Positions 517 to 46,124 of a stretch of 49,567 bases of DNA are shown here, in pieces. The position numbers and the translations under genes are program-made. The notes beneath the pieces were generated by a model. It made no database searches, was not told the origin of the DNA, and worked only from the letters and a program-made list of their open reading frames with translations. Every line of letters starts with the position of its first letter. The first letter of the stretch is position 1. Source of the stretch: Escherichia phage CJ19. The DNA lies in sequence record MT176427.1. One strand, 5' to 3'.

Positions 517-562
517 AGTATACCCGCACAGCGGCGGGTATGTTTAGCAATTCGTGCTATTC
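517..562 (-). promoter_or_regulatory. early promoter cassette (ATAGCAC box + hairpin + -10 TATACT)
   Basis: Box 543-562; hairpin ACCCGC/GCGGGT; 22-bp spacer; start of 253-486 downstream. Confidence 0.5.
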
Positions 563-4422: not shown

Positions 4423-4467
4423 ATAATAACAGCCATCGAAACCAATGTTTAACAAAAAGTGCTATTG
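4423..4467 (-). promoter_or_regulatory. promoter cassette for helicase operon
   Basis: Box variant ATAGCAC-N3-TTGTTAAA at 4448-4467; -10 TGtTATTAT; leader CAATCGAACGAACATGAAAGG. Confidence 0.45.
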
Positions 4468-4477: not shown

Positions 4478-4951
4478 ATGAATGCAGTCGACAAGCGAAC
4501 CATTAACGGCAACAACGGAACAGTCCGAACTGAAGACAAAAAGCAACGAAAACGACCTTCAGGTTACTACGTTTTAAAAGATGAAGTAAAGGCCGGGCTT
4601 CGGGCGCGACTGGAGATGGTTCTCGACTTCTACGGAACGAAGGCCAATATCGCAAAGCAACTGAAGGTTAGTCGCCAGGCGGTTGAGGAATGGTTCAAGA
4701 GGGGCATGATGTCGGCCCGAGGCGCTCAACTGGCGCACAACCGATACAAGCGAACTGGAGAGGGTTTTCGCGCGACTTTTTGCCGACCGGATCTGCAATT
4801 CGATGGCAACGGAAAGCCGCTGACACTCCGGTGCAAAAAACGTCACATGCTGCGCGTTGTTACTGAGGCTGAATTAGCTACGAAGCCAGAATGTCGATCG
4901 TGGCGCAAGATTAAGGCCGCTAACGAAGCAGCACGAAAAGCTAAAGAGTAA
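4478..4951 (+). CDS. putative HTH DNA-binding protein (Cro/YdaS-like)
   Basis: Segment IAKQLKVSRQAVEEWFKRG resembles a Cro/YdaS-type helix-turn-helix; strong RBS GAGGTGATGAG before ATG; basic protein; terminator 4956-4990 follows. Confidence 0.4.
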   Translation: MNAVDKRTINGNNGTVRTEDKKQRKRPSGYYVLKDEVKAGLRARLEMVLDFYGTKANIAKQLKVSRQAVEEWFKRGMMSARGAQLAHNRYKRTGEGFRATFCRPDLQFDGNGKPLTLRCKKRHMLRVVTEAELATKPECRSWRKIKAANEAARKAKE

Positions 4952-5961: not shown

Positions 5962-5998
5962 AGCAATGCTATACTGCACTTTAGCAATTCGTGCTAAA
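5962..5998 (+). promoter_or_regulatory. extended -10 promoter (TGCTATACT) with the palindromic box downstream at operator position
   Basis: TGCTATACT at 5967-5975; perfect palindrome TTTAGCA-ATTCG-TGCTAAA at 5980-5998, 23 nt before tail fibre ATG. Confidence 0.4.
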
Positions 5999-6021
5999 CA
6001 ACAATATAGGAGTTGATTATT

Positions 6022-7941: not shown

Positions 7942-7948
7942 TGTAAAN

Positions 7949-7977
7949 AATAAAAGCCCCGAAAGGGGCTTTATCTT
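7949..7977. terminator. bidirectional terminator between tail fibre and ssb
   Basis: Hairpin AAAGCCCC-GAAA-GGGGCTTT flanked by A-run and T-run; convergent genes. Confidence 0.6.
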
Positions 7978-9170: not shown

Positions 9171-9213
9171 ATTATAGCAAATCACCGCGTTCGTGTTTAG
9201 CAAAAAGTGCTAC
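9171..9213 (-). promoter_or_regulatory. early promoter cassette (ATAGCAC box + TGCTATAAT)
   Basis: Box 9196-9213; hairpin CGGTGAT/ATCACCG; consensus extended -10. Confidence 0.5.
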
Positions 9214-10250
9214 GCTTCCAGGATGTGCTTGAACTGTTTCATTACCCAATCAGGTGTATCCAGTTCGACTTCCGGCTCGCCGTTGTTGTATGAAGGCCAC
9301 ACGTCATTGGCTTCGCACATTGAAAAGGTGTGAATCACGCTCATGTACTGCGCTCGACCAATCTTAAGCTGATCGCTACTCATCCGGTACGCCATCGGCA
9401 AGTAAGGCTCCTTCTTCTCCTGGGCCAGCAATCGCACAACCACAGGTCGCGTTTCCTCAAAGCACTTGACGAACAGGTCACGCTGCAATGCCATCTTGAG
9501 GTAATATCCAAGGTTGAACGCCATGCGCGGGAACTCAGTCGGGTTTGCGCTCATTGTCGTTTTGTAATCAGTGATGACGACAATTTCAGGATGAATCTCA
9601 GGATCGTAACCCATGCGCCGGATGGATTCTGGATCATTAATGATGTCAACATGGTCAAGCCGAACCTTGACTTTAACGCCACAAATTACGCCGAACAACG
9701 AATACTCACGGAATGCCGTCTCGCTATTCATACAGGCGTTATGCTCAGGAATCATTTCAAGAACCTGGCGCATACTTACGCAAGCGTCGTAGTCTTCCGC
9801 CTTAACCAGCTCAACGCCATCGGCCCACGCCTGACACTGTGCGATCATATCAATCAGCCACATGACGTTGAGGTCTTCGCCGCAATCAACCATCATCTTG
9901 ATCAGTTCTGGATATTGCTTACCGCTTGTACCAGTCAGGCCAAATGATTTTAATTTCGTTGCCAATGCTGCCTGGCTAGTGATCACGTTTTCAATCTCGC
10001 TTTCTTTCGGTGCGCGGCGATACTGGCGCTCAAACAGTGCCTTACTCTCGAAATTGGTATGCGACTGCGTACCGAAGACCAGTGCCTTAGTCGTCGAGTT
10101 CATTTCAAACTTCCACGCCGCAGGGCAAGTACTGTGAATCTTGCTGAGTGACGAGCCTGATACATAATCGGCGGTCCACTCATCTTTGCTGTGGTAAAAG
10201 TCGTTACTCATTTCTTCTGACGTGAAGTATTGAAACAGTGGCTTGGTCAT
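9210..10250 (-). CDS. recombination exonuclease (RecE/YqaJ-like, PD-(D/E)XK)
   Basis: 346-aa ORF upstream of annealase gene, acidic nuclease-like core (VVITDYKTT); canonical sigma70-like promoter 10284-10312 upstream. Confidence 0.45.
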   Translation of the reverse strand: MTKPLFQYFTSEEMSNDFYHSKDEWTADYVSGSSLSKIHSTCPAAWKFEMNSTTKALVFGTQSHTNFESKALFERQYRRAPKESEIENVITSQAALATKLKSFGLTGTSGKQYPELIKMMVDCGEDLNVMWLIDMIAQCQAWADGVELVKAEDYDACVSMRQVLEMIPEHNACMNSETAFREYSLFGVICGVKVKVRLDHVDIINDPESIRRMGYDPEIHPEIVVITDYKTTMSANPTEFPRMAFNLGYYLKMALQRDLFVKCFEETRPVVVRLLAQEKKEPYLPMAYRMSSDQLKIGRAQYMSVIHTFSMCEANDVWPSYNNGEPEVELDTPDWVMKQFKHILEA

Positions 10251-10283
10251 CTCTTTAATCCTCGTTCGTTGTTGATGTGGCTA

Positions 10284-10312
10284 ACTATACTCGCTTAGTC
10301 GCATTAGTCAAG
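10284..10312 (-). promoter_or_regulatory. canonical sigma70-like promoter TTGACT-N17-TATAGT
   Basis: -35 at 10307-10312 and -10 at 10284-10289 on the minus strand; leader CATCAACAACGAACGAGGA before exonuclease ATG. Confidence 0.5.
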
Positions 10313-10386
10313 TGGTTACACGTATATAGCTGTAATTCGATGTATACATTGGTGTTAGTTACATAAAAAGGCTATCCGGACCAGCC

Positions 10387-10625
10387 ATAGCTCAATGTAA
10401 ATAGCTTGTATATCGTGTATATCATTTTCAACAGATGGTGCATTGGTGTGCGTGTGACTAAACACTGTATAAATGTACATATTAGAAATTTATAAGCGGA
10501 ACACTCTATAGAAGTAGTTACATGATATACACAGTAATATATATATAATAATAATAAGAGTAAAAGGTTGATATATATAGATATTTTAATGTAACTAATG
10601 CGTAAATTGGCGTAACAGCGCGTAT
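10387..10625. repeat. AT-rich control-region element, copy A
   Basis: Contains ATAGCTCAATGTAA (10387-10400), (AT)5(AAT)3 at 10537-10557, TAAAAGGTTGATATA...GATATTTTAATGTAAC and GCGTAA/GGCGTA repeats; about 80 percent identical over ~90 bp to 41186-41280. Confidence 0.7.
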
Positions 10626-10680
10626 ATCATTTTCCGCGGACGAGATTGCATACACCGAGTTACATCGGTTACGCGTATAC

Positions 10681-10726
10681 AATAGCACGAATAGCTAAAT
10701 ACTCCGTAATCATCCTTTGCTATAGT
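10681..10726 (+). promoter_or_regulatory. promoter cassette (ATAGCAC box + TGCTATAGT)
   Basis: Box 10681-10700; -10 at 10721-10726; leader CCATCGAAACGAAACAC; drives lipoprotein gene. Confidence 0.5.
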
Positions 10727-10766
10727 TACTCCATCGAAACGAAACACACTCACTAAGGAATACAAA

Positions 10767-10997
10767 ATGACTAAATTCATCAAATCGGCAATAATCGCAG
10801 CAGCAGTAATCATGACTGTAGGTTGTTCTTCCGGACCCCGACCTGACGGTTGGTGCGCGACTGAAGTTAACGGCTCATGTGTTGCTAAATGGAAAGGAGG
10901 TGTAGTTGTAGCTTCAGGTGAAACAGATATCCGCTGGGATGGTATCAAAAACCTCTCTGGATCAGTTAAAGATTATGGCACCAAGGAGTGGAAATAA
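10767..10997 (+). CDS. small outer-membrane lipoprotein (Cor-like superinfection-exclusion candidate)
   Basis: 76-aa ORF, signal peptide plus lipobox (MTVGC); promoter cassette 10681-10726 and conserved leader; adjacent to tail-tip gene region. Confidence 0.5.
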
Positions 10998-11959
10998 TGC
11001 CTCAGGGTATCTTGATAGACTTGAATGACGGAAGACCGAGAATGGAGATAACTGCAGGTTTAAGAGCGCCCGCAGTAACAGGAAGCCTTAGCAGTAACTC
11101 CACGTTTGATTCCGCCAATGGCACTAGAGACTTCGGACTAACAATGACTCAAGGATCTGCGGCCTTCATATTGCCGACAAAGGCTATTGACGTTTATGAC
11201 TTCGACTTCATACCTGAGGTTTATTTCATGAATGGATTTTCCAGGGTCAATAACTCAACTGGAAGGATAAGTATAGGGAACTTTAACGGCTCATCAGGAC
11301 ATTTGATTGGATTTGGCGCGCAAGGCTTTGAGGTTCTTGGTGCATCACCAGGCAGCGAGGGGATATTTGTCAGTGATTCGACTAACTTCACTGCAATAAC
11401 ATCAAACAGTAGACTCCTGACTGCTCAGTATGTCGGAACTGTGACTGTGAATGGAAGCTACACACTCCCGGTGACTGGAATACCGTTTGGAAGGTGGAAT
11501 AACCCAAACGTCACCCTTGAGTTTGACGGGGCAAGAATACTATGTAGAAACAATACCTACACAGGAATTGATAATGTCTCAGCATCAGTAACTATCGATC
11601 TTGTTATATTCAACAATACAGCACCAACCGCCGGGCCTGGTTTAACAATGTCAAACGCCTCTGGCCAGATAGTGTTTTCCAGCGTCAAGCGACCTTTTGT
11701 ACTAAGTGGATTCCTCCAGCTTTCCAACTCATACCAATCAATAGGTAATGGGTTTTTCCCAATACTAAGGTGCGGCGCGATGGTTGAGGTTACTGGCGGA
11801 TACAACAACCTTAGATACAAGGGCGTTGCGATGTCAAATGGTCAGGTTAGGGCGCATAAAGGAAGTGTTTATGGTAACTACTCAACGCAGTCTGGCGCGC
11901 AGTTCCCATTCAACACCAACATATCAATGCGGTTACCGTACATACCAAACATGTACTAA
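10988..11959 (+). CDS. hypothetical Asn/Gly/Ser/Thr-rich protein (323 aa), possibly fibre- or receptor-related
   Basis: Translationally coupled to the lipoprotein gene (ATAATG overlap); composition resembles beta-rich fibre domains; followed by hairpin 11962-11986. Confidence 0.4.
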
Positions 11960-11961
11960 AA

Positions 11962-11986
11962 AAGCCCCCAGAAGGGGGCTATATGT
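11962..11986. terminator. hairpin between convergent 323-aa ORF and J
   Basis: Hairpin AGCCCCC-AGAA-GGGGGCT with A-run upstream; weak T-run. Confidence 0.45.
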
Positions 11987-15369: not shown

Positions 15370-15414
15370 GATGTTTAGCCTTTCGTGCGATTTATCGAAG
15401 TTTCATTATACAGG

Positions 15415-17505: not shown

Positions 17506-17540
17506 TTACCTCCAATAAAAAAGCCCCCGTTAGGAGGCTT
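17506..17540 (-). terminator. terminator-like hairpin between gpM-like and gpL-like genes
   Basis: On minus strand imperfect hairpin AAGCCTCC-TAAC-GGGGGCTT followed by TTTTTTATT, then RBS and L start. Confidence 0.4.
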
Positions 17541-17544
17541 TATT

Positions 17545-25333: not shown

Positions 25334-25451
25334 AATTTGTTTTCCTTTGTTTGTTAGAAAGCCGTGATTAAGTTCACGGCTCTATAATAGCATTTTTTGT
25401 TAAACGGTCAACAGCTTTTTATGTTAAGCGATTATGTCGCTCTCTGGCAAT

Positions 25452-25473
25452 AAAAAAGGAGCCTTTCGGCTCC
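25452..25473 (-). terminator. intrinsic terminator after decoration-like gene
   Basis: On minus strand hairpin GGAGCC-GAAA-GGCTCC followed by TTTTTT. Confidence 0.6.
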
Positions 25474-29749: not shown

Positions 29750-30274
29750 TTATTTGACTTCCGACTTACCATGATTTTCATGATAGCCCAAAGCGAACTC
29801 CGCAGACTTCCTTGCGCAAACTGCATCGAACCAATCATAGTAGTATCCCAATGACTTCCTCTCTCCTTTCCCTGAGTTACCTATGAAAGCCCACCACTTG
29901 GATCTTGAATCATACCAGTAAACACCTACACACCCGCTTTTATTCCTTACTGACTTCTTTGTGTTTCTACCGTTATCCTTATGGGTAACAACCCTTAAAT
30001 TCTCCCTCCTATTGTCGTTCCTTATGTGATTTTTGTGATCTATCTGCATCCCATCAGGGATATCTCCATTATCGAATTCCCATGCGAATCTGTGAGCAAG
30101 AAGCGATACGCCACCTATCGTTATCCTCACATAACCATCAGCATCAAGTGTTCCCGCTATGTCACCAGGGTAGAATTTACTCTTTTTAATCTTGATCATC
30201 CACCTAACATAAACTCCATCATACGTTAGATAATTCTTGGCTATGTCATAAATATCGCTTCTTGCATTCTGCAT
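29750..30274 (-). CDS. HNH homing endonuclease with AP2-like domain (paralog of 27184-27666)
   Basis: HNH core (IDHKNHIRNDNRRENLRVV...KDN) plus AP2-like segment (SGCVGVYW...WWAFI...SLGYY); wedged between terL and portal. Confidence 0.7.
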   Translation of the reverse strand: MQNARSDIYDIAKNYLTYDGVYVRWMIKIKKSKFYPGDIAGTLDADGYVRITIGGVSLLAHRFAWEFDNGDIPDGMQIDHKNHIRNDNRRENLRVVTHKDNGRNTKKSVRNKSGCVGVYWYDSRSKWWAFIGNSGKGERKSLGYYYDWFDAVCARKSAEFALGYHENHGKSEVK

Positions 30275-31863
30275 TACATCCCCCTACTTAATCCGGCTAA
30301 ACGTTTCATTCTAGACACTGGATCATCCAGCATGTTCATCTCAAAGTTTACAGCATCAAATACGTTATCGCAAATGTCATCATGAGGAGATGAATCATCA
30401 AACGTAAATGACACCAATTCAATCTCCATGTCAGAAAGCATCTCATGAGATTCAGGGAATACACAACGCCCCGCCTTCATGATTGGTGCTGCGTCCATTG
30501 CGCGAGTTACCTTATCCGTATTTCGCTGAACTGGCGTAATGTCAATCGGTAGTTTCTTGTTGATTGACTGGATCAGGCCAGTGCCGCTCGCCTTGTCTTC
30601 AATGTAAACCTTGCGCAGTGAAGTCTTGTTCTCCTTCGCCCACTTGAAGCAGTTGCTGTAAAAATTAAGAGCCATCTTTTCAAGTTCCGGCGCTTCCCAC
30701 TTACCGCGAATGCCGTCTATGAAATATACTCGATCCTTATACTTGCCCCACAAAACAAATACGCTGTAGTCGTGTATTTCCTCTGCTTTCTGCGCTGTAT
30801 CCGCAGTGGTGAACAGGTATTCGAAGCGATCCGGTTTTGGCATATTGGCTTTTTCGCCGTCTCCGTAATACTGGAACCAGTCCGACTTAAACGCGTTACC
30901 GCCAAGCGCGATGGGCTTCTGCTGATACTGAGACTCAAAGGTGTAAAGGTCAGCCTCTCGTAGAGCTAGTAAACTTTGAGCACTTTCCTTTGCTGGCCAG
31001 AATGAATAGTGCTTAATACCATCAATCTCAACAGGCTCGGACGATAAAACATCTCGGTCAAACTCTTCTTTCAACCAGTCAGGAAGCGTGTCTCTGTATT
31101 CCTCGGTTACCAGCGCCGGAATGATTACCTGCTCAAACTTCATGCCACCCATGCCGCCATTCATCAGGAACCATGTGGCATCATTCACATGGAGTCGCTG
31201 CTGCACAACAACGCACGGCGTCTTGTCGTTCATCCTTCGAGATCGAACGGTATTCTTTAATAGCGTGTGACCAGCCTTCCTTTTTACTGCTGAGTATAAA
31301 TCTTTCGGTTTCTCAGGGTCATCAAGCGTCAACATGCCAGTGAATCCATCGTCCATATACCCGCCACGCTTACCAGTTACCTGACCACCTATGGCTCGAG
31401 ATGTTAACGTCAGCCACGCCTTGTCATTACTGTTTAGCGCTGTAATGTCTCCTCCTGAAGCCTTTGCCATCTTACAAGGCCATAATTCCTGGAACTCATC
31501 AGATCCCAATATCTCGCGCGTCCTAATCCCGTTATCCTTAACCAAACTGTCAGAGAATGAAAGGTTTAGATTTCTTATCTTGCCACTGTGAAACATTCCG
31601 TAAACTGGCATGTGTATAGAAAATATCTCAGTTTTACCGGAACCTGGAGTGATATTGAATATGATGTTCTGTATCTCACCCTTAATGATCTGCTCAACCT
31701 TCCAGCAAAGGTAAGTGAAGTGCCAGTTAGATCTAAACTTCTGAGCCTGTATCAGCGCGAACCATATGCGCATAAAGTCACTAAACGACCTTTCGCTCAT
31801 CACCTTTATTACCGCCTTTTCCTTTGGTGTCAGATCTTCCCAAATCAATATCTTGTTAGACAT
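30274..31863 (-). CDS. terminase large subunit
   Basis: 529-aa ORF with Walker A-like PGSGKT and acidic nuclease-like C-terminal half; first large gene of structural block. Confidence 0.8.
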   Translation of the reverse strand: MSNKILIWEDLTPKEKAVIKVMSERSFSDFMRIWFALIQAQKFRSNWHFTYLCWKVEQIIKGEIQNIIFNITPGSGKTEIFSIHMPVYGMFHSGKIRNLNLSFSDSLVKDNGIRTREILGSDEFQELWPCKMAKASGGDITALNSNDKAWLTLTSRAIGGQVTGKRGGYMDDGFTGMLTLDDPEKPKDLYSAVKRKAGHTLLKNTVRSRRMNDKTPCVVVQQRLHVNDATWFLMNGGMGGMKFEQVIIPALVTEEYRDTLPDWLKEEFDRDVLSSEPVEIDGIKHYSFWPAKESAQSLLALREADLYTFESQYQQKPIALGGNAFKSDWFQYYGDGEKANMPKPDRFEYLFTTADTAQKAEEIHDYSVFVLWGKYKDRVYFIDGIRGKWEAPELEKMALNFYSNCFKWAKENKTSLRKVYIEDKASGTGLIQSINKKLPIDITPVQRNTDKVTRAMDAAPIMKAGRCVFPESHEMLSDMEIELVSFTFDDSSPHDDICDNVFDAVNFEMNMLDDPVSRMKRLAGLSRGM

Positions 31864-31897: not shown

Positions 31898-31922
31898 ATT
31901 TTATCCACATAGTCAGATTTTA

Positions 31923-32491: not shown

Positions 32492-32515
32492 AAAAAAAGC
32501 ACCCCGAAGGATGCT
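32492..32515 (-). terminator. intrinsic terminator ending the small-gene early operon
   Basis: On minus strand hairpin AGCATCC-TTCG-GGGTGCT followed by TTTTTTT. Confidence 0.6.
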
Positions 32516-32523
32516 TAAATGAA

Positions 32524-34102: not shown

Positions 34103-34148
34103 ACTATACAGCTACCCCGATTATGAGTTTTAACAAAAAGTGCTATCG
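34103..34148 (-). promoter_or_regulatory. early promoter cassette (ATAGCAC box + TATAGT)
   Basis: Box 34128-34148; -10 at 34103-34108 in hairpin loop; 22-bp spacer. Confidence 0.5.
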
Positions 34149-34731: not shown

Positions 34732-34776
34732 ACTATAACAAAACCCGCCGGAGCGGGTTTAGCAATTAGTGCTATT
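34732..34776 (-). promoter_or_regulatory. early promoter cassette (ATAGCAC box + TGTTATAGT)
   Basis: Box 34757-34776; hairpin AACCCGC/GCGGGTT in spacer; 22-bp spacer. Confidence 0.5.
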
Positions 34777-35408
34777 TACCAGGGTAATCCATCTTCCCAC
34801 TCGTAAACATCAACCTCTGTAACTGGTGAGCTAATACCGCAAGCCTCAGCCACTGCCATTACACCGCCTTCAATATCACCATTGACCAGATGCACATCAT
34901 GCTCGTTATATTTCTTGTAATCAGGAAAATGCGATTCCTTGATGCGAATGTAATCACGGCTATCGCCAGCGAAAGTCTTGCCATCCATGAACAGGCGGAC
35001 CAGGGTAACATCGTGACCATCTTCAACGAGTCGGATCACTTCGTCGGGGAAGCCGCCATCAGTGCAAACAAAGCAGAAGCCTTCATCACACAGCTGGATA
35101 TGTTCGCTCATCAATTTGCCGAACTGCTGATTGCCAAAAAGCGGCTTGACCACTGTTTCGCTAATCCAGATCATGAACTCACGGCAGGTCTTGCCACCGA
35201 GAAATTTCTGAGGCTGCTCTTTCTGATCGCGGTAGTCGTATGCGGTGATGAACTTTGAGAAAGCTCTGGCACCAAGGATGGATGCCGCAATCTCAAACAT
35301 CGGACGCTTGAAGCTGGTAGGGATGCAGTTGTAATCCGCTGCGAGCGCGTTGCCGATCGTGTCTTTACCAACCGAAGCTGGACCGTTGAGAATGATAATC
35401 TTTGACAT
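34776..35408 (-). CDS. P-loop nucleotide/polynucleotide kinase-like protein
   Basis: N-terminal P-loop GPASVGKDT resembling NMP-kinase Walker A; 210 aa. Confidence 0.5.
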   Translation of the reverse strand: MSKIIILNGPASVGKDTIGNALAADYNCIPTSFKRPMFEIAASILGARAFSKFITAYDYRDQKEQPQKFLGGKTCREFMIWISETVVKPLFGNQQFGKLMSEHIQLCDEGFCFVCTDGGFPDEVIRLVEDGHDVTLVRLFMDGKTFAGDSRDYIRIKESHFPDYKKYNEHDVHLVNGDIEGGVMAVAEACGISSPVTEVDVYEWEDGLPW

Positions 35409-36029: not shown

Positions 36030-36075
36030 ATTATACCAGTCAGGATGAATCCCCCTTTAACAAAACGTGCTATTT
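36030..36075 (-). promoter_or_regulatory. early promoter cassette (ATAGCAC box + TGGTATAAT)
   Basis: Box 36056-36075; 22-bp spacer; leader CATCAACCACACGAAAGGAAG before phosphatase ATG. Confidence 0.5.
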
Positions 36076-36917: not shown

Positions 36918-36963
36918 ACTATATCTAATGTCTCCGAGCAAGTTTTAACAAAAAGTGCTATTC
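36918..36963 (-). promoter_or_regulatory. early promoter cassette (ATAGCAC box + TATAGT)
   Basis: Box 36943-36963; hairpin GGAGACA/TGTCTCC with -10 in loop. Confidence 0.5.
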
Positions 36964-37761: not shown

Positions 37762-37807
37762 ACTATATCAAATGGCCTTGCGGAAGGTTTAACGATTAGT
37801 GCTATTT
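37762..37807 (-). promoter_or_regulatory. early promoter cassette (ATAGCAC box + TGATATAGT)
   Basis: Box 37788-37807; hairpin AAGGCCA/TGGCCTT with -10 in loop. Confidence 0.5.
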
Positions 37808-38329: not shown

Positions 38330-38553
38330 ACAATACCCTTATCAGCTCTGTGTGCAGCTTCAATCAGATACGCAGCTAACTGGCGAGCCTGGTCTGGCGT
38401 GTACAGCATGTAACTACTTGGGTATGATTCTTCGTGAGGGTTGAAGTCAAGGCGCACCTTGAAAGTCACCTTGTCATTGCTATGAATCTTCACAGCCTCA
38501 ATTTCGGCCTGCTCGTTGTAGTCGTCTGCGATGCGTACGGCGGTTGTGCTCAT
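38326..38553 (-). CDS. small paralog family member P1 (75 aa)
   Basis: C-terminal motif YTPDQARQLAAYLIEAA shared with 39113-39334 and 39331-39537; promoter cassette 38593-38638. Confidence 0.5.
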   Translation of the reverse strand: MSTTAVRIADDYNEQAEIEAVKIHSNDKVTFKVRLDFNPHEESYPSSYMLYTPDQARQLAAYLIEAAHRADKGIV

Positions 38554-38592
38554 AAATTACCCCTTAGTTGATTGTTTCACTTCAATGAGTGC

Positions 38593-38638
38593 ACTATAGC
38601 AAATGCACTCACGGCAGTTTTAACAAAAAGTGCTATCG
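38593..38638 (-). promoter_or_regulatory. early promoter cassette (ATAGCAC box + TGCTATAGT)
   Basis: Box 38618-38638; hairpin TGAGTGCA/TGCACTCA with -10 in loop; drives paralog P1. Confidence 0.5.
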
Positions 38639-38923
38639 TTCATCTTCTCTGGAGCATCCCTTGCCGCAACCATGGCGACCAACTTCCACGATCCCGACAC
38701 CGCTTAAGCCGATGTATTCCTGACCAGTGTCCTTATCGGTGATGACGTATATCGCTCTGACGTTCTCATATGCCAGTTCATCCCTGAACTCCTGAATCTT
38801 CACAACCTGGACGCGATCGTTGACATTCACTTGCATCTTCTGCCGAGCCTCTGAATCTACACGGGTGCTTCCGAAATCACATCCAGCCAGTGCTAGGGCT
38901 GCAATTAAGATTAACTTTTTCAT
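38633..38923 (-). CDS. small lipoprotein (96 aa)
   Basis: Signal peptide with lipobox (LALAGC); C-terminal Cys pair. Confidence 0.55.
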   Translation of the reverse strand: MKKLILIAALALAGCDFGSTRVDSEARQKMQVNVNDRVQVVKIQEFRDELAYENVRAIYVITDKDTGQEYIGLSGVGIVEVGRHGCGKGCSREDER

Positions 38924-39120
38924 TCTACCACCTTCAATACTTTCTCTTTGCGATGCGGTGCGCCGGACTTATGCAGCCAGTAGCGAGCCTGGGATAACTG
39001 GCTGGTGTGCCCAACCGTAACCAACCAGAACAGGGCTACCCTTTTCTGGATTGCATACCACTTGACCGGATGACAGAAGGCCGTAGTCGTGTCAATCAAT
39101 GCGATCCTGAATTTACTCAT
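38920..39120 (-). CDS. hypothetical protein
   Basis: ORF-track frame 38920-39177; start moved to Met20 (MSKFRIA) just after upstream stop. Confidence 0.3.
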   Translation of the reverse strand: MSKFRIALIDTTTAFCHPVKWYAIQKRVALFWLVTVGHTSQLSQARYWLHKSGAPHRKEKVLKVVE

Positions 39121-39334
39121 CACCTTCTTCTTCCTCCACTTCCTCAGCCGCTTTGATGAGTGCCGCCGCCAGTTCACGAGCCTGCTCTGCTGTGTAGGTC
39201 ATGCCAGCGCCGTCTGCCTGCGAATCTGGCGCGAGGTCCAGGTGCACGCGCTTGCGCATCTTGCCAAATGGAACCTTGATTACTGAGATTTCCGTTTCCT
39301 GATTCCATGATGAATTGACTCGAATATCTCTCAT
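39113..39334 (-). CDS. small paralog family member P2 (73 aa)
   Basis: C-terminal motif YTAEQARELAAALIKAAEE plus poly-acidic tail; ATGA overlap with P3. Confidence 0.5.
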   Translation of the reverse strand: MRDIRVNSSWNQETEISVIKVPFGKMRKRVHLDLAPDSQADGAGMTYTAEQARELAAALIKAAEEVEEEEGDE

Positions 39335-39537
39335 TGCTTTTCAGCCTCTTCTGCTGCCAGGATAAGCGCCGCCGCCAGCTTGCGTGCTTGCTCTGGTGTG
39401 TAGTGCATCATGGTAACGCCCTGATCGTCAGTATCGAAGTCAATGGAGACTACGGCCTTGACTACTCCAGTCCGATTGAGCAGAACGCTAACCTCGGCAT
39501 CATCACCAACCACATCCTCAATGCGTAAAATTTCCAT
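39331..39537 (-). CDS. small paralog family member P3 (68 aa)
   Basis: C-terminal motif YTPEQARKLAAALILAAEEAE. Confidence 0.5.
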   Translation of the reverse strand: MEILRIEDVVGDDAEVSVLLNRTGVVKAVVSIDFDTDDQGVTMMHYTPEQARKLAAALILAAEEAEKQ

Positions 39538-39539
39538 AA

Positions 39540-39754
39540 TTATTTCCCCTCCGCTTCGTCTGCTGCAAGGATTAATGCCGCCGCTAACTTGCGGGCCGCG
39601 TCAGGTGAGTATTGCATCAGCGTTTGACAGTCGGAGTAACCGTCAGGATCGAATTCAAGGTTGACAACATGCCCGCGAACGGTTCCCATCGTGACGCTGA
39701 CCCCTCTGCTTGTTCAAAGTGAACATCGTCAATGCGTACAGTTTACATAATCAT
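39540..39754 (-). pseudogene. decayed fourth copy of the small paralog family (P4)
   Basis: Manual translation: ATG ATT ATG TAA (stop at codon 4), then TVRIDDVHFEQAEG in one frame and VSVTMGTVRGHVVNLEFDPDGYSDCQTLMQYSPDAARKLAAALILAADEAEGK in another; intact promoter cassette 39779-39824 and RBS. Confidence 0.45.
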
Positions 39755-39778: not shown

Positions 39779-39824
39779 ATCATAGCTGACTACCCGATTT
39801 GTTGTTTAGCAATTCGTGCTATTC
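39779..39824 (-). promoter_or_regulatory. early promoter cassette (ATAGCAC box + TATGAT)
   Basis: Box 39805-39824; 22-bp spacer; drives decayed P4 and P3-P2 operon. Confidence 0.45.
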
Positions 39825-40373
39825 ACCGTTCAGGAGAGTTTTCGCTTTCCGGTAGAACTGGATGGCCTTCTCCACCTCATCGGCATCATAGCCATGGATG
39901 GTTGGCGGCTTAATCGGCTCAACGTAGTGAGAGCGTGGCGCATCAGATCGGTACTGACTGCACCAGCTGTACACGTCTCGCTCATGCATTCCCGCCAGGG
40001 CTGGATGCACAAATATCTTGTCGCCAATCCGGCAGATGATTCCGGCGTCCTGGAGTGACGGCAGGATGTTATTGCTCAGGTCATTGTATATGCCATCACG
40101 TCCGACGAATGGTATGACCTCTCTGATTTGTCTGTATAGCTGGCTCACACAAACCATTCCGGTATTGCCGCATAAGCGCTTAATCTTATGCACCACGACG
40201 CCGTATTTGTAACTCAGCTTGACGCACGACATCTCTTCGGAGCTTGACCAATATTTGAAGGTGTCGCGATAGCCATTTGCACTGATCGCAACCTTAAGCG
40301 GTGACATGCCGCTTTCACTGGCTTCATTGAATATCTGCTCGCCTGTCATTCTTTCGCTCCCGAAGTAACTCAT
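39819..40373 (-). CDS. hypothetical protein sharing N- and C-terminal modules with the 527-aa ATPase
   Basis: SPLKVAISANGYR and ICRIGDKIFVHPALAG match PPLRVAINANGYR and TCLIGDKIYINPRLLG of 44541-46124. Confidence 0.5.
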   Translation of the reverse strand: MSYFGSERMTGEQIFNEASESGMSPLKVAISANGYRDTFKYWSSSEEMSCVKLSYKYGVVVHKIKRLCGNTGMVCVSQLYRQIREVIPFVGRDGIYNDLSNNILPSLQDAGIICRIGDKIFVHPALAGMHERDVYSWCSQYRSDAPRSHYVEPIKPPTIHGYDADEVEKAIQFYRKAKTLLNGE

Positions 40374-40894: not shown

Positions 40895-41031
40895 AGATAT
40901 TACTCCTGATTGGTGGTCTTCGTTAAGATGGGTGCAATATTACCAGCATGGTTACATGTTATCAAGTGTTATTGATGCAAATATTCGACTTAGTTACGTT
41001 TTACGACCTCTTGAGCCAGATATAGCTCAAT

Positions 41032-41280
41032 GTAACCACTATGTACAGCTTGTACATCAAATTTCGCGGAGGATTGCCCCATATATGCCTTTTTATTCCT
41101 ACAATGTCATCCCATTCTTACAAGTGTCAGAATATATCATAGAAAGCTATCGCAATATCCAATACCTCTTATCTACATTATCTACATATATATATAATAA
41201 TAATAATAATATAGATAAAAGGTTGTTATATAAGGATATTTTATTGTAACCATAGCGTAACTAGGCGTTATAGGCGTACC
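41032..41280. repeat. AT-rich control-region element, copy B
   Basis: Contains ATAGCTCAATGTAA (41032-41045), (AT)5(AAT)5 at 41186-41210, TAAAAGGTTGTTATA...GATATTTTATTGTAAC and GCGTAA/GGCGTT/GGCGTA repeats. Confidence 0.7.
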
Positions 41281-41527
41281 TGATTCCACGCCGGATGGAT
41301 TTGTCTACAGAGTATAACATGCATAACGCGTATGCGGTGGAAACGTGTGGCGGAAAAATCCTACCAGGCGATCATGGGATCAGATCTCACCCCATCATTC
41401 CCCCCACCAATGAATCATCGCTCAATTCGCAACAATCAAAAACATCATTGCATCGGAAGCAATATTGCTGTATGTGCAATAGTCATGATAATCATTGCAA
41501 TATCTGCAACAATCCATAAATCCAACG

Positions 41528-41574
41528 AATAGCACTTTTTGCTAATGACCGATCAGGTGTGATTCGCTATTATT
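41528..41574 (+). promoter_or_regulatory. promoter cassette (ATAGCAC box + TATTAT)
   Basis: Box 41528-41546; -10 at 41569-41574; leader CCATCGAAACGAG. Confidence 0.5.
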
Positions 41575-41612
41575 ACTCCATCGAAACGAGTGAAGAGAAC
41601 TGGAGAAAATAA

Positions 41613-42015: not shown

Positions 42016-42447
42016 ATGAGCATTGTTCACGGTGTTATCTATAAGGGAAAAACTGACGGAAAGGTAAGGTTTGTTACGCCATCCGGCAGGGTTTATATGT
42101 GGGCCTACGGAGCCTGGCGCTTCCAGCACCAATTCAATGAGTCGATCTACAATAGCTTGCGATCCTGTATCGGGAATGGCGTTAGCAATATATACCTGGC
42201 ATCAAGTCGCAAGGTGTTCATGGAAAAGCGTGTAGCGCTCGATCCGATTGACTACTTTGCCGTTGAGTTCATGGGGCATCGGTTTAGTAAAAGACGATTG
42301 TTCCGCAAAGGTGAGATTGCAATGGAACAACAAAATGCGGCTGCTGCTTTCGGCAAAGCGGCACGTCAACGCCTGACTGGTTATCATCCATGCTTTCCGC
42401 CAACGCCGTTTTATGCTCACTGTAAACGACCACCAAAAAATCGTTAA
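42016..42447 (+). CDS. hypothetical protein (143 aa)
   Basis: ORF with RBS; no motif recognised. Confidence 0.4.
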   Translation: MSIVHGVIYKGKTDGKVRFVTPSGRVYMWAYGAWRFQHQFNESIYNSLRSCIGNGVSNIYLASSRKVFMEKRVALDPIDYFAVEFMGHRFSKRRLFRKGEIAMEQQNAAAAFGKAARQRLTGYHPCFPPTPFYAHCKRPPKNR

Positions 42448-42491
42448 ATAGCACGAATTGCTAAACTAAGCCTCACGGATTGAGGCATAAT
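42447..42491 (+). promoter_or_regulatory. promoter cassette (ATAGCAC box + CATAAT)
   Basis: Box 42447-42465; hairpin GCCTCA/TGAGGC; leader TCATCGAAACGAAG. Confidence 0.5.
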
Positions 42492-43379: not shown

Positions 43380-44044
43380 AAAAGGTAATTTACTGCTTGT
43401 TCGACGGTTCTGGTATCGCTGGCCTCCCATGGGCGGAAGATGGTCACACCGTCTACTGCTTCAATGCGGACTCCGGCAATCATGGCGAATACCATATCAA
43501 GATGAAGCATGAGAACATCCACTACGTCAACATGTGGATTGACAAGGATTTCATCACTAAGTGTGAATTGCTCGGCCTGCCTCCGGCGCAAATGGTTATC
43601 GGCTTTCCTGATTGCACGCTGTTCTCTCAGTCTGGATCACAGCATGAGCGCGGGGAAGATGAGCTGGCATACGCCCTGGCTAACGCGAAGCTCGTCGAAG
43701 AAGTCGGCAATCACTTCCAGGCACCATGGATGGTTGAGAATCCGGTAGGCAAGCTGTCAAGCCTGTGGCGTAAGCCTGACTTCTATTTCAATCCTTGCGA
43801 TTATGGCGGTTACGTTGATCACGATGATGTTTATCACCCAAGAATGCCCCCTCGTAATGCTTACAATAAAAAGACTTGCATTTGGTGTGGCAATGGATTT
43901 GTTGAACCTATTAAAAAGCCAGTTGAGAGCATTGGATTCTTCTGGGCCTGGAAATACTGCGGCGGAAAGTCTGCAAAGACAAAGGTACTCCGCTCATTAA
44001 CACCGGAAGGCTTTGCTCGCGCACTATATGAAAGCAACAAATAG
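43376..44044 (+). CDS. DNA methyltransferase-like protein (C5-cytosine-type motif order)
   Basis: Motif I-like FDGSG, motif IV-like GFPDC with Cys, motif VI-like ENPVG in the right order and spacing; short (222 aa). Confidence 0.4.
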   Translation: MKKVIYCLFDGSGIAGLPWAEDGHTVYCFNADSGNHGEYHIKMKHENIHYVNMWIDKDFITKCELLGLPPAQMVIGFPDCTLFSQSGSQHERGEDELAYALANAKLVEEVGNHFQAPWMVENPVGKLSSLWRKPDFYFNPCDYGGYVDHDDVYHPRMPPRNAYNKKTCIWCGNGFVEPIKKPVESIGFFWAWKYCGGKSAKTKVLRSLTPEGFARALYESNK

Positions 44045-44084
44045 CACTAATTGCTAAAGCCCTTCGGGGCTTTTCCTGTATATT
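44040..44084 (+). promoter_or_regulatory. promoter cassette (ATAGCAC box + TGTATATT)
   Basis: Box 44040-44058; hairpin AGCCC/GGGCT; leader TCATCGAAACGAAACAC. Confidence 0.5.
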
Positions 44085-44540: not shown

Positions 44541-46124
44541 ATGTTTGATTTCAACGAAGATAAATTGTCAATCGATCAGGTCATGGCTGTAGCCGCTGCC
44601 GATAACCTGCCACCTTTGCGCGTTGCCATCAATGCGAACGGATACAGGCAGAGCCAATCATTCTGGAAAGCCCCAACAGAAATTGACTCAGGCGGTGACA
44701 AATATCCGGTTATCTCACTTGGTAACGATTATGATGTCGTTGGTAAGCTGTCAAGCAATGCCGCTCGTTCAGTTCAATTCCCCGAGTCGTCCGCTTACAT
44801 GCATTTCCTCGGATGCATATCAGCCGCCATGCTGGGCCGATTTACGGTTGAGTATCACGGAACACAACAGCCGACCGCTCTTTACGTCGTAACCAGTCAG
44901 CCACCATCGACAGGTAAATCAGCCATCAACTCACTTTCGCTGGCCCCGATGATCGCAGAGACTGAGCGACTCAACGAGATCCGAAAGCGCGACCGCAAGA
45001 AGATTATGGCTAAACTATCTGCTCTATCCAAGGAGATGAAGCAGGAAAAATCACCGTCCGACATGGCGGCACTGTTTGAGGAAAAAGAAGAACTGGAAGA
45101 AAAACTGGAACGCCTTTGTGACATCGTATTCCCCGTATCCGACACCACGCCGGAAGGTCTGGCGCGAATCAACAACCGCCAGGGTAACTTCTCTGTGATC
45201 TCGGATGAAGCGACGAGCGTAAACTCACTGTTAGGCATGACCTATGGTGATGGCTCAAAGAAAACGAACAGCGAACTTGTGCTTAAGGCATGGGATGCTG
45301 GTAACGTATCTATCGCCCGTGCGAACGCAGACAACAACATGAGCTTTATTGCGATGGGCTGCATATCTGTAATTGCGCAGGATGAAACAATCAACGCGAT
45401 CATGAATGCTGGCGCGCGTGGTATCGGTGTATCCGAGCGATTCTTGCTTGTGCGTGAGAAGTCATTCCTTGGCGAGCGTGTATTCGTTGACGAAAAAGGC
45501 GAATCAACATACGAGCCGATTGATGGCGGACTCAAGGCGGACTACTTCCGTCTGGTCCATGAGATCATGAGCGAACACGAAGTCAACCTGACAGTGAGCA
45601 CGTCGGCGATGAAATATCTCAACCGTGCGCGTCAGGATATGGAACCTCACCTTGCGGACGGCGGGAAGTATTCACACACAATGCTTCGCGGCGCGCTGGG
45701 TAAGTTCGATAAGCAGGCTATCAGGATCGCGGCTGTTCTTCACACTGTGCGTAACTGGTTTAATCCCAATGGCGGGAGTCCGAAGAAGTCCAGAGAGATT
45801 GAGCTTGACACAATGCAGGAAGCGGTAATTATGTTCCAGGAGCTGAGTAAGACTTATCTGTCATCTGCAAACGCTGCTGGTCATGCTGGCGACCATGCTG
45901 AGATGAATAAGCTGATCGATATTCTGATCAAGCAAGGTAAGAACGGGAAAGGCGTTGTAGGTGTCAGATCCCTATATGAAGCGGCTCGTAAGGTTAAGCC
46001 ATTCGAGGGCCAGGCTGGCGTAATGACTCGAATCAAAGACCATCTGATCCCTATGCTTGATGAGAAAAACTATACGTGCCTGATTGGTGATAAAATTTAC
46101 ATTAATCCGCGACTGCTGGGGTAA
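44541..46124 (+). CDS. P-loop NTPase (putative replication/recombination ATPase)
   Basis: 527-aa ORF with P-loop-like SQPPSTGKSA; N- and C-terminal modules shared with 39819-40373. Confidence 0.5.
   Translation: MFDFNEDKLSIDQVMAVAAADNLPPLRVAINANGYRQSQSFWKAPTEIDSGGDKYPVISLGNDYDVVGKLSSNAARSVQFPESSAYMHFLGCISAAMLGRFTVEYHGTQQPTALYVVTSQPPSTGKSAINSLSLAPMIAETERLNEIRKRDRKKIMAKLSALSKEMKQEKSPSDMAALFEEKEELEEKLERLCDIVFPVSDTTPEGLARINNRQGNFSVISDEATSVNSLLGMTYGDGSKKTNSELVLKAWDAGNVSIARANADNNMSFIAMGCISVIAQDETINAIMNAGARGIGVSERFLLVREKSFLGERVFVDEKGESTYEPIDGGLKADYFRLVHEIMSEHEVNLTVSTSAMKYLNRARQDMEPHLADGGKYSHTMLRGALGKFDKQAIRIAAVLHTVRNWFNPNGGSPKKSREIELDTMQEAVIMFQELSKTYLSSANAAGHAGDHAEMNKLIDILIKQGKNGKGVVGVRSLYEAARKVKPFEGQAGVMTRIKDHLIPMLDEKNYTCLIGDKIYINPRLLG

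What the first reader, a model, noticed from the sequence alone, without database searches (positions are those of the whole stretch)
10260..10766. Two ~0.5-kb AT-rich divergent control regions share a duplicated ~90-bp element
The two largest non-coding stretches (10260-10766 and 40895-41612) each separate leftward from rightward early genes and contain the same sub-elements in the same order: ATAGCTCAATGTAA...AGCTTGTA(T/C)ATC, then an (AT)5(AAT)3-5 microsatellite, then TAAAAGGTTG(A/T)TATA...GATATTTTA(A/T)TGTAAC, then GCGTAA/GGCGTA repeats (10537-10625 versus 41186-41280, about 80 percent identical). A duplicated AT-rich element with short iterated repeats at both divergent promoter hubs is a candidate pair of replication origins or shared regulatory sites. 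The AAT tract length differs between copies (3 versus 5 units).
Basis: seen in the sequence. Interest (0 to 1): 0.6.

Follow-up and report, generated by a model that had tools for sequence, protein, structure and literature searches.

The report
Paired origin-like DNA cassettes, T1-like phage
This T1-like phage carries two old copies of a roughly 300-base non-coding cassette that looks like a DNA replication start site; the same pair occurs across the phage family, whose replication origins have never been mapped.

Summary
The window is a T1-like phage (Drexlerviridae). The two regions share about 300 bp (10381-10677 and 41016-41333). Local alignment scores 104, against 23±3 for shuffles.

Each copy has short boxes (GTTACA/TAYACA), an (AT)n(AAT)n tract, an IHF-consensus site, a TATAGATATTTT box, TGTAAC, and three GCGTA boxes one helical turn apart.

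The two cores are the least stable duplex DNA in this genome, and also in T1 and Klebsiella phage IME268. The short boxes differ by lineage and lie almost only in these two regions:
- window phage: GTTACAT, 6 of 9 genome copies
- T1: TGTAACA, 6 of 6
- IME268: GTAAGAT, 14 of 16

In IME268 one copy lies between co-directional genes, so the cassette is not tied to divergent promoters. The core has no positionally conserved promoter, no RNA signal, no GATC and no DnaA box.

Best reading, at about 45%: paired origin-like assembly sites made of iterons, an unwinding element and an IHF site. This is unproven.

The main rival is a transcription-control hub. The extra ~190 bp in region 2 holds the T1 and TLS record ends and probably the pac site.

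I found no published description of the pair.

The parts
10381..10677 (.). Region-1 cassette: the conserved non-coding unit of about 300 bp
   Evidence: In Rtp-like relatives, similarity to region 1 begins at position 131 and usually ends at 427 (window 10381-10677). Identity there is 82-90%. The adjacent coding side is only 66-70% identical in most of these phages. The unit was found in 134 phage records, all T1-like, and in no plasmid or E. coli genome.
10387..10414 (+). Left sub-element ATAGCTCAATGTAA..AGCTTGTATATC, containing TGTA-type boxes
   Evidence: (family D11).
10517..10531 (+). Two TAYACA boxes 9 nt apart (GTTACAtgaTATACA), at the left edge of the A/T tract
   Evidence: Equivalent pairs occur in all 20 copies examined.
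10537..10555 (.). (AT)5(AAT)3 microsatellite, the centre of the low-stability tract
   Evidence: The 60-mer 10535-10594 is the second least stable in the genome (z = 5.1).
10561..10573 (-). IHF-consensus core TATCAACCTTTTA (WATCAANNNNTTR)
   Evidence: It is one of only 4 consensus matches in the genome. Among 20 copies, changes fall on two of the four unspecified N positions or turn ATCAA into AACAA.
10574..10587 (+). TATATAGATATTTT box
   Evidence: TATAGA(T/G)(A/T)TTT is also kept in TLS-like region 1 and region 2 and in T1 region 1.
10590..10595 (-). TGTAAC box, the inverted orientation of GTTACA
10600..10624 (+). Three GCGTA boxes with a 10-bp period
   Evidence: Their offsets from the TAAAAGG anchor are +39, +49 and +58/59 in nearly every one of the 20 copies, with no indels.
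10634..10677 (+). Right block CCGCGGACGAGATTGCATACA..GTTACAT..GGTTACGCGTA
   Evidence: It is homologous to CGCCGGATnGATTTGTnnACA in window region 2, in T1 region 1, and in TLS-like region 1 and region 2.
10284..10311 (-). Leftward sigma-70-like promoter TTGACT-16-TATAGT, outside the cassette
10681..10742 (+). Rightward promoter-like module: the 21-nt repeat AATAGCACGAATAGCTAA, then TGcTATAGT, then CATCGAAACGA. It is outside the cassette and is a genome-wide module.
   Evidence: (families D8-D10). The repeat is described for phage TLS with function unknown (PMC11447400).
41016..41333 (.). Region-2 cassette, the paralogous copy
   Evidence: The 60-mer 41185-41244 is the least stable in the genome (z = 5.3).
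41022..41058 (+). Left sub-element ATAGCTCAATGTAA..AGCTTGTACATC
41172..41186 (+). Two TCTACA boxes 9 nt apart
41186..41210 (.). (AT)5(AAT)5 microsatellite
41216..41228 (-). IHF-like core TAACAACCTTTTA, one mismatch to the consensus
41229..41250 (+). TATAAGGATATTTT box followed by TGTAAC
41255..41278 (+). Three GCGTA/GCGTT boxes with a 9-10-bp period
41334..41527 (.). Segment found only in region 2 and absent from region 1. It contains GATC x3 at 41370-41386 and a 52-codon ORF at 41374-41532. It is the probable pac region.
   Evidence: Alignment gap. T1 coordinate 1 maps to about 41450. The TLS record end maps to the equivalent segment.
40937..40965 (-). Leftward sigma-70-like promoter TTGATA-17-TAATAT preceded by TG, outside the cassette
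41528..41589 (+). Rightward promoter-like module: 21-nt repeat, TATTAT, CATCGAAACGA
44541..46124 (+). Candidate trans factor (inferred only): DUF3987 helicase whose last ~65 residues are homologous to a winged-helix domain
   Evidence: The N- and C-terminal parts diverge faster than the core between lineages.
39819..40373 (-). Candidate trans factor (inferred only): a 184-aa paralogue of the helicase N- and C-terminal domains that lacks the ATPase core. It lies two genes left of region 2.

Best explanation
The two regions each hold one copy of an ancient cis-acting cassette of about 300 bp, and both copies are maintained across Drexlerviridae. I think each copy most likely works as an origin-like assembly site for DNA replication.

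**Proposed mechanism**
1. A phage-encoded DNA-binding protein recognises the short lineage-specific boxes on both sides of the A/T tract. In this phage these are GTTACA/TAYACA/TGTAAC and three GCGTA boxes one helical turn apart.
2. Host IHF bends the DNA at TATCAACCTTTTA, immediately next to the tract.
3. The bend folds the box array back onto the (AT)n(AAT)n tract, which is the most easily melted DNA in the genome.
4. The tract opens. In this phage, negative supercoiling from the flanking divergent transcription would help.
5. The phage helicase and primase load, and host polymerase extends.

**Shown here**
- The paralogy of the two copies and its significance.
- The conserved order and rigid spacing of the sub-elements.
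- The extreme duplex instability of the two cores.
- The concentration of lineage-specific boxes in exactly these two regions.
- The IHF-consensus match.
- The lack of coding, RNA-structure and conserved-promoter signals in the core.

**Inferred, not shown**
- All protein binding.
- The identity of the initiator. Candidates are the DUF3987 helicase through its terminal domains, or its 184-aa core-less winged-helix paralogue.
- DNA unwinding.
- Initiation of replication itself.
- Whether both copies fire, or whether one acts as an enhancer as crr does in phage P4.
For: 1. **Real paralogy.** Local score 104 against 23.3±2.7 for shuffles; 47 with A/T runs masked.
2. **Duplex stability.** The cores are the two least stable 40-, 60- and 100-mers in the window (z 4.5-5.3; next best 3.2-3.6). 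The same holds for the equivalent regions in T1 (z 5.8 and 5.5; next 3.75) and in Klebsiella phage IME268 (z 5.9 and 5.3; next 3.6).
3. **Iteron-like boxes confined to the two regions, differing by lineage.**
   - Window: GTTACAT, 6 of 9 genome copies in 2.5% of the genome (p = 2e-8). GTTACA occurs 8 times against 0.9 in shuffles of the regions themselves.
   - T1: TGTAACA, 6 of 6 genome copies.
   - IME268: GTAAGAT, 14 of 16 genome copies, against 0.17 in shuffles.
   - TLS-like genomes have GAACA/TTTTGTTC-type boxes at the homologous places.
4. **Rigid geometry.** In 20 copies from relatives the right half has no indels and the GCGTA boxes sit at +39, +49 and +58/59. Only the microsatellite changes length.
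5. **IHF site.** The consensus core is one of 4 genome matches. Substitutions among copies fall on two of its four unspecified positions or change ATCAA to AACAA.
6. **Conservation.** The cassette is more conserved than the flanking genes: 82-90% against 66-70%.
7. **Independence from divergent promoters.** In IME268 the region-1 equivalent lies between co-directional primase and exonuclease genes.
[quoted passage not shown] The helicase C-terminus is homologous to a winged-helix domain.
9. **Open question in the field.** Published analyses of T1-like phages report that no origin was found (PMC11447400; PMC7718038).
Against: - There is no experimental evidence of any kind. Nothing here shows unwinding, protein binding or initiation.
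- Two copies per genome is not the commonest arrangement for a phage origin.
- The box motifs were chosen after looking at the data. They remain significant after correcting for the number of k-mers, but the window's own enrichment is the weakest of the three genomes.
- The IHF match in region 2 has one mismatch. An exact consensus is missing in TLS-like and T1 cores.
- Short repeats upstream of operons could equally be operator or activator sites. A/T tracts can also serve as UP elements or as binding sites for nucleoid proteins.
- GC skew is uninformative because it follows transcription direction.
- Region-1 copies are 94.5% alike while region-2 copies are only 66% alike, so the two copies may not be functionally equivalent.
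- The winged-helix fold is generic, and some such domains bind proteins rather than DNA.
Confidence: 0.45

Rival explanations
1. The cassette is a transcription-control hub. A phage regulator, for example the 157-aa helix-turn-helix protein at 4478-4951, binds the repeated boxes together with IHF. This switches the operons that start at both regions on or off, much as the Mu early operator region uses repressor sites plus IHF. On this reading the cassette plays no part in replication.
For: - Both copies lie upstream of promoters that drive flanking operons.
- In IME268 the cassette still lies upstream of the exonuclease-recombinase-SSB operon.
- The phage encodes a regulator-like helix-turn-helix protein.
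- Lineage-specific boxes that change in parallel at two loci are what a shared trans-acting regulator would produce.
Against: - The core holds no positionally conserved -35/-10 pair. Promoter-like hits are not enriched: 6 found against 3.1±2.0 and 3.7±2.2 expected. Those that exist depend on the microsatellite, whose length varies.
- The core lies about 90-250 bp from the flanking promoters rather than over them.
- Eleven boxes (ten exact GTAAGAT plus one variant) spread over 400 bp in IME268 are more typical of iterons than of operators.
- This reading does not explain why the cores are the two least stable duplex sites in three genera.
Confidence: 0.25
2. The cassette is part of the packaging signal: a site where terminase is recognised or assembles, comparable to the IHF-assisted pac site of phage P1.
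For: - Region 2 corresponds to the genome ends of the T1 and TLS records.
- Published work says pac lies in that region of T1-like genomes.
- An IHF-like site lies about 140 bp from a GATC x3 cluster.
Against: - The T1 and TLS ends map about 100-120 bp to the right of the cassette, inside the segment that region 1 lacks.
- The shared cassette contains no GATC in either copy.
- Region 1 is internal, about 30 kb away. For TLS only one submolar pac fragment is described.
- In IME268 the region-1 copy holds more boxes than the region-2 copy, 10 against 4.
Confidence: 0.08
3. The cassette encodes a small RNA or a small protein.
For: - Some GenBank records annotate short hypothetical ORFs there.
- A weak terminator-like hairpin lies at 10370-10386 on the minus strand.
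Against: - No Rfam match.
- Folding z-scores are -0.29 and +0.38.
- The AT unit number varies (2-5), which shifts the reading frame.
- The hairpin is not conserved in region 2.
Confidence: 0.03
4. The similarity is a neutral relic or a chance product of low-complexity A/T-rich DNA, with no function.
For: Part of the similarity is microsatellite sequence.
Against: - z = 30 against shuffles, and the score stays above every shuffle with A/T runs masked.
- The cassette is kept in 134 records.
- Its architecture is kept in four lineages, including Klebsiella phages.
- It is more conserved than neighbouring genes.
Confidence: 0.02

Closest known systems
Phage P4 ori plus crr (comparison from my own knowledge, not tested here)
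   Same: P4 has two separated cis regions that carry the same short iterons. They are recognised by the winged-helix C-terminal domain of a phage primase-helicase, and replication does not depend on DnaA. The T1-like phages likewise have their own primase, a helicase with a winged-helix-type C-terminus, and two box-bearing loci.
   Different: - No sequence homology to P4 was found.
- The helicase here is of the DUF3987 type and the primase is a separate protein.
- The two loci are 20-30 kb apart.
- Each has a long A/T microsatellite and, in this lineage, an IHF-consensus site.
- Binding was not tested.
E. coli oriC left half: unwinding element, DnaA box R1, IHF site, DnaA box array (comparison from my own knowledge)
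   Same: The order of parts matches: an easily melted A/T tract, directly followed by an IHF site, then an array of short boxes at helical spacing that the bend could fold back onto the tract.
   Different: There are no DnaA boxes and no GATC sites in the cassette. The boxes are phage-lineage-specific, so the initiator would be phage-encoded.
Lambda ori and iteron-plasmid origins such as pSC101 and R6K gamma (comparison from my own knowledge)
   Same: Iterons lie next to an A/T-rich region. Iteron sequence and initiator specificity vary by lineage. Neighbouring transcription helps activation, and several of the plasmid origins have IHF sites.
   Different: The cassette is intergenic rather than inside the initiator gene. 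It has two copies per genome. Its boxes occur in both orientations on both sides of the tract.
Multiple origins of T7 (primary and secondary) and T4 (oriF, oriG) (comparison from my own knowledge)
   Same: These are virulent phages with more than one origin, each combining a promoter with a downstream A/T-rich unwinding element.
   Different: No promoter was found that reads into the A/T tract; the flanking promoters point away from it. The repeated boxes have no counterpart in the T7 or T4 origins.
Phage Mu early operator region and phage P1 pac site (comparison from my own knowledge)
   Same: Both are IHF-assisted nucleoprotein sites. Mu's lies between divergent promoters. P1 pac combines an IHF site with GATC clusters in a phage that encodes its own Dam methylase.
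   Different: The cassette core lies away from the promoters and holds no GATC. The GATC cluster and the genome ends lie in the region-2-specific segment next to the cassette.
The 21-nt intergenic repeats of TLS, T1 and Rtp (PMC11447400)
   Same: One copy of the repeat lies at the right end of each region (10681-10698 and 41528-41545).
   Different: Those repeats are a separate genome-wide element with at least 10 copies, each upstream of a gene. They are not part of the two-copy cassette.

Membership tests
Iteron-type replication origin | Initiates replication in vivo, or supports replication of a linked replicon when the initiator is supplied | not testable with these tools
   This needs marker-frequency mapping, two-dimensional gels or a plasmid amplification assay.
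Iteron-type replication origin | A cluster of repeated short sites for a specific initiator | tested here: met
   - GTTACAT: 6 of 9 genome copies lie in the two regions.
- T1 TGTAACA: 6 of 6.
- IME268 GTAAGAT: 14 of 16.
- Shuffles of the regions give 0.2-0.9 copies.
- Three GCGTA boxes with a 10-bp period sit at fixed offsets.

Protein binding itself was not tested.
Iteron-type replication origin | An adjacent A/T-rich DNA-unwinding element | tested here: met
   By nearest-neighbour stability the two cores rank first and second in the window, in T1 and in IME268. Actual unwinding was not tested.
Iteron-type replication origin | Sites for host accessory factors (IHF or DnaA) | tested here: inconclusive
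   There is an IHF-consensus match at 10561-10573 and a one-mismatch match at 41216-41228. Exact matches are absent from T1 and TLS-like cores. There is no DnaA box.
Iteron-type replication origin | A cognate initiator encoded by the same genome | tested here: inconclusive
   Primase, a DUF3987 helicase with a winged-helix-type C-terminus, and a core-less paralogue are all present. None is shown to bind the boxes.
Sigma-70 promoter/operator control region | -35/-10 elements conserved in position within the shared element, with regulator sites overlapping them | tested here: not met
   Promoter-like hits in the core are not enriched and are not homologous between the two copies. Their spacing would change with microsatellite length. 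The credible promoters lie outside the cassette.
pac site (P1-like) | Lies at the start of the packaging series | tested here: not met
   The T1 and TLS record ends map to the region-2-specific segment, not to the shared cassette. Region 1 is internal.
pac site (P1-like) | Clustered GATC-containing repeats flanking the cut site | tested here: not met
   There is no GATC in region 1 or in the shared part of region 2. The GATC x3 cluster lies only at 41370-41386, beside the cassette.
Structured non-coding RNA | Match to a known family, or a fold more stable than shuffles | tested here: not met
   No Rfam hit. Folding z-scores are -0.29 and +0.38.

The most novel reading that the evidence does not exclude
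Drexlerviridae may use a two-site origin system comparable to ori plus crr of phage P4. Lineage-specific iterons at two loci 20-30 kb apart would be bound, and perhaps bridged, by the winged-helix ends of the DUF3987 helicase or by its core-less 184-aa paralogue. IHF bending would fold the box array onto an (AT)n(AAT)n unwinding tract. Length polymorphism of that tract would then tune how readily the origin fires. One copy sits beside pac, which would link replication start and packaging start in a single control region.
Probability: 0.15. Interest if true: 0.75.

Novelty: new member of a known kind. Interest (0 to 1): 0.5.

Why it matters
T1 is one of the seven classic T phages, and its relatives are common laboratory and fermentation contaminants as well as phage-therapy candidates. 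No replication origin has been mapped for the family. Two genome papers state that none was found (PMC11447400, PMC7718038).

This analysis gives two precisely bounded candidate sites with a defined internal anatomy, conserved from E. coli phages to Klebsiella phages. That turns an open question into a short list of direct experiments.

It also separates three cis-acting elements that sit side by side:
- the two-copy cassette;
- the genome-wide 21-nt promoter-associated repeat;
- the probable pac segment.

This should help annotation and engineering of these phages. If the cassette turns out to be regulatory instead, it would still identify the main control sites of the operons that flank the two regions.

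Tried and rejected
- **GC skew as an origin indicator.** Rejected. It follows gene orientation, and both regions are points where transcription diverges.
- **DnaA dependence.** No TTWTNCACA box lies in either region.
- **Promoter inside the core.** I examined GTTACA or TATACA as a -35 paired with the microsatellite TATAAT as a -10. The spacing varies with the AT repeat number and the candidate hits are not homologous between the two copies.
- **Small RNA.** No Rfam match and no excess folding stability.
- **Coding potential.** Rejected because of frame-shifting repeat variation.
- **Recent gene conversion between the two copies.** Region 1 against region 2 is 66.9% identical within a genome and 64.4% between genomes.
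- **Borrowed plasmid or host origin, or a satellite carrying the cassette.** No match in the plasmid collection or in E. coli genomes.
- **Fetching region-2 orthologues with the DUF7174 protein.** Only 4 loci were found. I used the helicase gene as the anchor instead.
- **Exact-pattern scan for TAAAAGGTTGNTATATA.** Most hits were chance matches in unrelated A/T-rich contigs.
- **Sequence search of the helicase against solved structures.** Nothing useful was found.
- **Rtp genome paper.** It is not held in the library, and the original T1 genome paper was not seen, so an earlier mention of these regions there cannot be excluded.
- **My own error, corrected.** I first placed the TLS record end to the left of the cassette. 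Direct alignment places it to the right, in the region-2-specific segment.
Full report
**1. What the window is**

The window is the genome of a T1-like siphophage (Drexlerviridae), in the opposite orientation to the T1 reference. Both regions have close DNA matches only in T1-like phages.

- Region 1 (10251-10766) lies between the exonuclease VIII gene (9210-10250, minus strand) and a phage lipoprotein gene (10767-10997, plus strand). It corresponds to T1 29851-30377.
- Region 2 (40895-41612) lies between a DUF7174 gene (minus strand) and small rightward ORFs. It corresponds to the two ends of the T1 record (48675-48836 joined to 1-538), where T1 carries its annotated terminal repeat.
- These are the two largest intergenic gaps in the curated T1 annotation.

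**2. Check of the observation**

- The similarity is far beyond chance. The local alignment scores 104, against 23.3±2.7 for 500 dinucleotide-preserving shuffles. It scores 47, still above every shuffle, after all A/T runs of 8 or more are masked. Region 1 scores no more than 41 against any other part of the genome.
- The shared unit is about 300 bp, not 90 bp. It runs from the ATAGCTCAATGTAA block (10381 / 41016) to the GTTACGCGTA / ATAACGCGTA block (10677 / 41333).
- Region 2 has an extra stretch of about 190 bp (41334-41527) that region 1 lacks.
- The matching right-hand ends of the two regions are a different element. They belong to a genome-wide promoter-like module: a 21-nt repeat, a -10-like hexamer and CATCGAAACGA. 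The 21-nt repeat is already described for phage TLS, with function unknown (PMC11447400).

**3. Anatomy of the cassette**

Reading left to right in the window:

| Element | Region 1 | Region 2 |
|---|---|---|
| TGTA-type boxes in the left block | 10387-10414 | 41022-41058 |
| Two TAYACA boxes 9 nt apart | 10517-10531 | 41172-41186 |
| (AT)n(AAT)n microsatellite | 10537-10555 | 41186-41210 |
| TAAAAGGTTGWTA | 10561-10573 | 41216-41228 |
| TATA(T/A)(A/G)GATATTTT box | 10574-10587 | 41229-41242 |
| TGTAAC | 10590-10595 | 41245-41250 |
| Three GCGTA boxes, 9-10-bp period | 10600-10624 | 41255-41278 |
| CGCCGGAT..TTGT..ACA-like block with further TACA boxes | 10634-10677 | up to 41333 |

- The complement of TAAAAGGTTGATA is TATCAACCTTTTA, which matches the IHF consensus WATCAANNNNTTR. 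The region-1 site is one of only four consensus matches in the genome.
- I compared 20 copies from relatives. The right half has no insertions or deletions, and the GCGTA boxes sit at +39, +49 and +58/59 from the anchor. The microsatellite varies, with AT at 2-5 units and AAT at 3-7 units.
- Substitutions in the IHF-like core fall on two of its four unspecified positions, or change ATCAA to AACAA.
- Region-1 copies are 94.5% alike and region-2 copies 66% alike. Region 1 against region 2 is no more similar within a genome (66.9%) than between genomes (64.4%). The duplication is therefore old and shows no sign of recent gene conversion.
- The region-1 cassette is more conserved (82-90%) than the adjacent coding DNA (66-70%).

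**4. Properties that point to function**

- **Duplex stability.** The two cores are the two least stable duplex stretches in the genome at window sizes of 40, 60 and 100 nt (z 4.5-5.3; next best 3.2-3.6). The equivalent regions rank first and second in T1 and in Klebsiella phage IME268, genus Webervirus.
- **Short boxes.** They are concentrated in these regions and differ by lineage.
  - Window: GTTACAT, 6 of 9 genome copies.
  - T1: TGTAACA, 6 of 6.
  - IME268: GTAAGAT, 14 of 16.
  - TLS-like genomes carry GAACA/TTTTGTTC-type boxes at the homologous positions.
  - Shuffles of the regions themselves give 0.2-0.9 copies.
- **What stays constant.** The framework is kept across lineages: the (AT)n(AAT)n tract, the TATAGA(T/G)(A/T)TTT box (in the window, TLS-like genomes and T1 region 1) and the CGCCGGAT block. 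IME268 region 2 even shares ATATAATAATAATAAGAGTAAAA with window region 1.
- **Meaning of the pattern.** The same framework with a changed box sequence, changed in parallel at both loci of a genome, is what co-evolution with a phage-encoded DNA-binding protein would produce.
- **Not tied to divergent promoters.** In IME268 the region-1 equivalent lies between co-directional primase and exonuclease genes.

**5. What the cassette is not**

- **Not a promoter.** Credible sigma-70-like promoters for the flanking genes lie outside it, at 10311-10284, 40965-40937 and in the right-hand modules. Promoter-like hits inside the core are not enriched, not homologous between the copies, and depend on the variable microsatellite.
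- **Not a structured RNA.** No Rfam hit and no excess folding stability.
- **Not DnaA- or Dam-associated.** It has no DnaA box and no GATC.
- **Not borrowed.** It is absent from plasmids and E. coli genomes.
- **Not informed by GC skew**, which follows transcription direction.

**6. The region-2-specific segment**

- T1 coordinate 1 maps to about 41450 in the window.
- The end of the TLS record was set from restriction mapping of the pac fragment. It maps to the equivalent segment, next to a GATC cluster.
- The window has GATC x3 at 41370-41386, one of only two such triple clusters in the genome.
- pac is therefore most likely in this extra segment, beside the cassette rather than within it. 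This explains why region 2 is longer than region 1.

**7. Candidate trans factors (inference only)**

- The phage encodes a primase and a DUF3987 helicase.
- A 184-aa ORF two genes left of region 2 is homologous to the helicase's first 48 and last 65 residues but lacks the ATPase core.
- The helicase termini diverge faster than its core between lineages.
- A 157-aa helix-turn-helix regulator is also encoded.

**8. Interpretation**

The anatomy is that of an origin-like nucleoprotein site: lineage-specific iterons on both sides of the most meltable DNA in the genome, an IHF site at the edge of that tract, and a phased box array. It fits a phage that brings its own primase and helicase and has no DnaA boxes. 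I put this reading at about 0.45.

The proposed steps (initiator binding, IHF bending, melting of the A/T tract helped by divergent transcription, helicase and primase loading) are inferred, not shown.

The rivals are:
- a transcription-control hub (0.25);
- a packaging role for the shared cassette (0.08), which fits the data poorly;
- an RNA or protein product (0.03);
- chance or neutral relic (0.02).

The readings are not exclusive, because initiators often also regulate neighbouring promoters.

**9. Comparison with known systems**

These comparisons rest on my own knowledge of the systems, apart from the cited papers.

- The closest analogies are P4 ori plus crr, the left half of oriC, lambda and iteron-plasmid origins, and the multiple origins of T7 and T4.
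- No homology to any of them was found.
- The defining property, initiation of replication, cannot be tested here, so membership in the origin class is not established.

**10. Novelty**

The T1-like genome papers I could read do not describe the pair, and two of them report that no origin was found. The Rtp paper was not available and the original T1 genome paper was not seen.

If the origin reading is right, this is a new member of a known kind of element. Its value lies in making the unmapped origins of a classic phage family directly testable.

Noticed in passing
window 541-562, 1855-1876, 4445-4467, 5978-5999, 9194-9215, 15372-15393, 34126-34148, 34756-34777, 36053-36075, 36941-36963, 37785-37807, 38616-38638, 39803-39824, 42447-42465, 44040-44058, 48147-48168: A promoter-like module occurs across the genome. 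It consists of a 21-nt repeat (AATAGCACnnnTTGCTAAA, with inverted half-sites TAGCA-N5-TGCTA), followed at several sites about 20-25 nt downstream by TATAGT/TATTAT and then CATCGAAACGA just before the gene start. The repeat is published for TLS, T1 and Rtp, and its function is unknown. The inverted half-sites suggest a dimeric helix-turn-helix protein binds it.
   Followed up: partly
window 39819-40373 (-): A 184-aa ORF is homologous to the N-terminal 48 and C-terminal 65 residues of the DUF3987 helicase (44541-46124) but lacks the ATPase core. Its model shows a winged helix. It could compete with the helicase or regulate it.
   Followed up: partly
window 41334-41527: This segment occurs only in region 2. 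It holds GATC x3 within 17 nt (41370-41386), one of only two such clusters in the genome. It corresponds to T1 coordinate 1 and to the TLS record end. It is the probable pac region and recalls the GATC-rich, IHF-assisted pac site of phage P1, another phage that encodes its own Dam methylase.
   Followed up: partly
window 41374-41532 (+): A 52-codon ORF with a hydrophobic stretch (MGSDLTPSF...IAVCAIVMIIIAISATI...) lies inside the probable pac segment. One related record, BUCT-XGG-1, lists a 'membrane protein' among the features under the match to region 2. T1 has no gene there.
   Followed up: no
window 38348-39617 (-): Four tandem paralogous small genes share a 62-nt stretch at their starts (repeat family D2).
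   Followed up: no
window 31901-31909 (+): A perfect DnaA box, TTATCCACA, lies in the short gap between the two ORFs that match the T1 terminase subunits in size and position. It is one of only two consensus matches in the genome.
   Followed up: no
window about 41183 and about 10670: GenBank record boundaries coincide with the cassettes. ETEP102 starts at the region-2 microsatellite and Jk06 ends inside the region-1 core. I cannot say whether these are assembly break points at the repeat or real DNA ends.
   Followed up: no
L135 (Klebsiella phage IME268) 34061-34555 and 49250-49552 joined to 1-443: Webervirus has the same pair of elements, with a different iteron (GTAAGAT: 10 and 4 copies, only 2 elsewhere). 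Here the region-1 equivalent sits between the primase and exonuclease genes, which are transcribed in the same direction.
   Followed up: yes
window 7947-7974, 11957-11984, 17516-17543, 32492-32519, 25445-25473, 46635-46663: Families of near-identical GC-rich hairpins followed by T runs (terminator-like) recur between operons (repeat families D7 and D18).
   Followed up: no
window 2078, 4155, 6912, 7672, 7948, 18073, 20660, 21167, 29726: The window sequence contains nine ambiguous bases (N).
   Followed up: no
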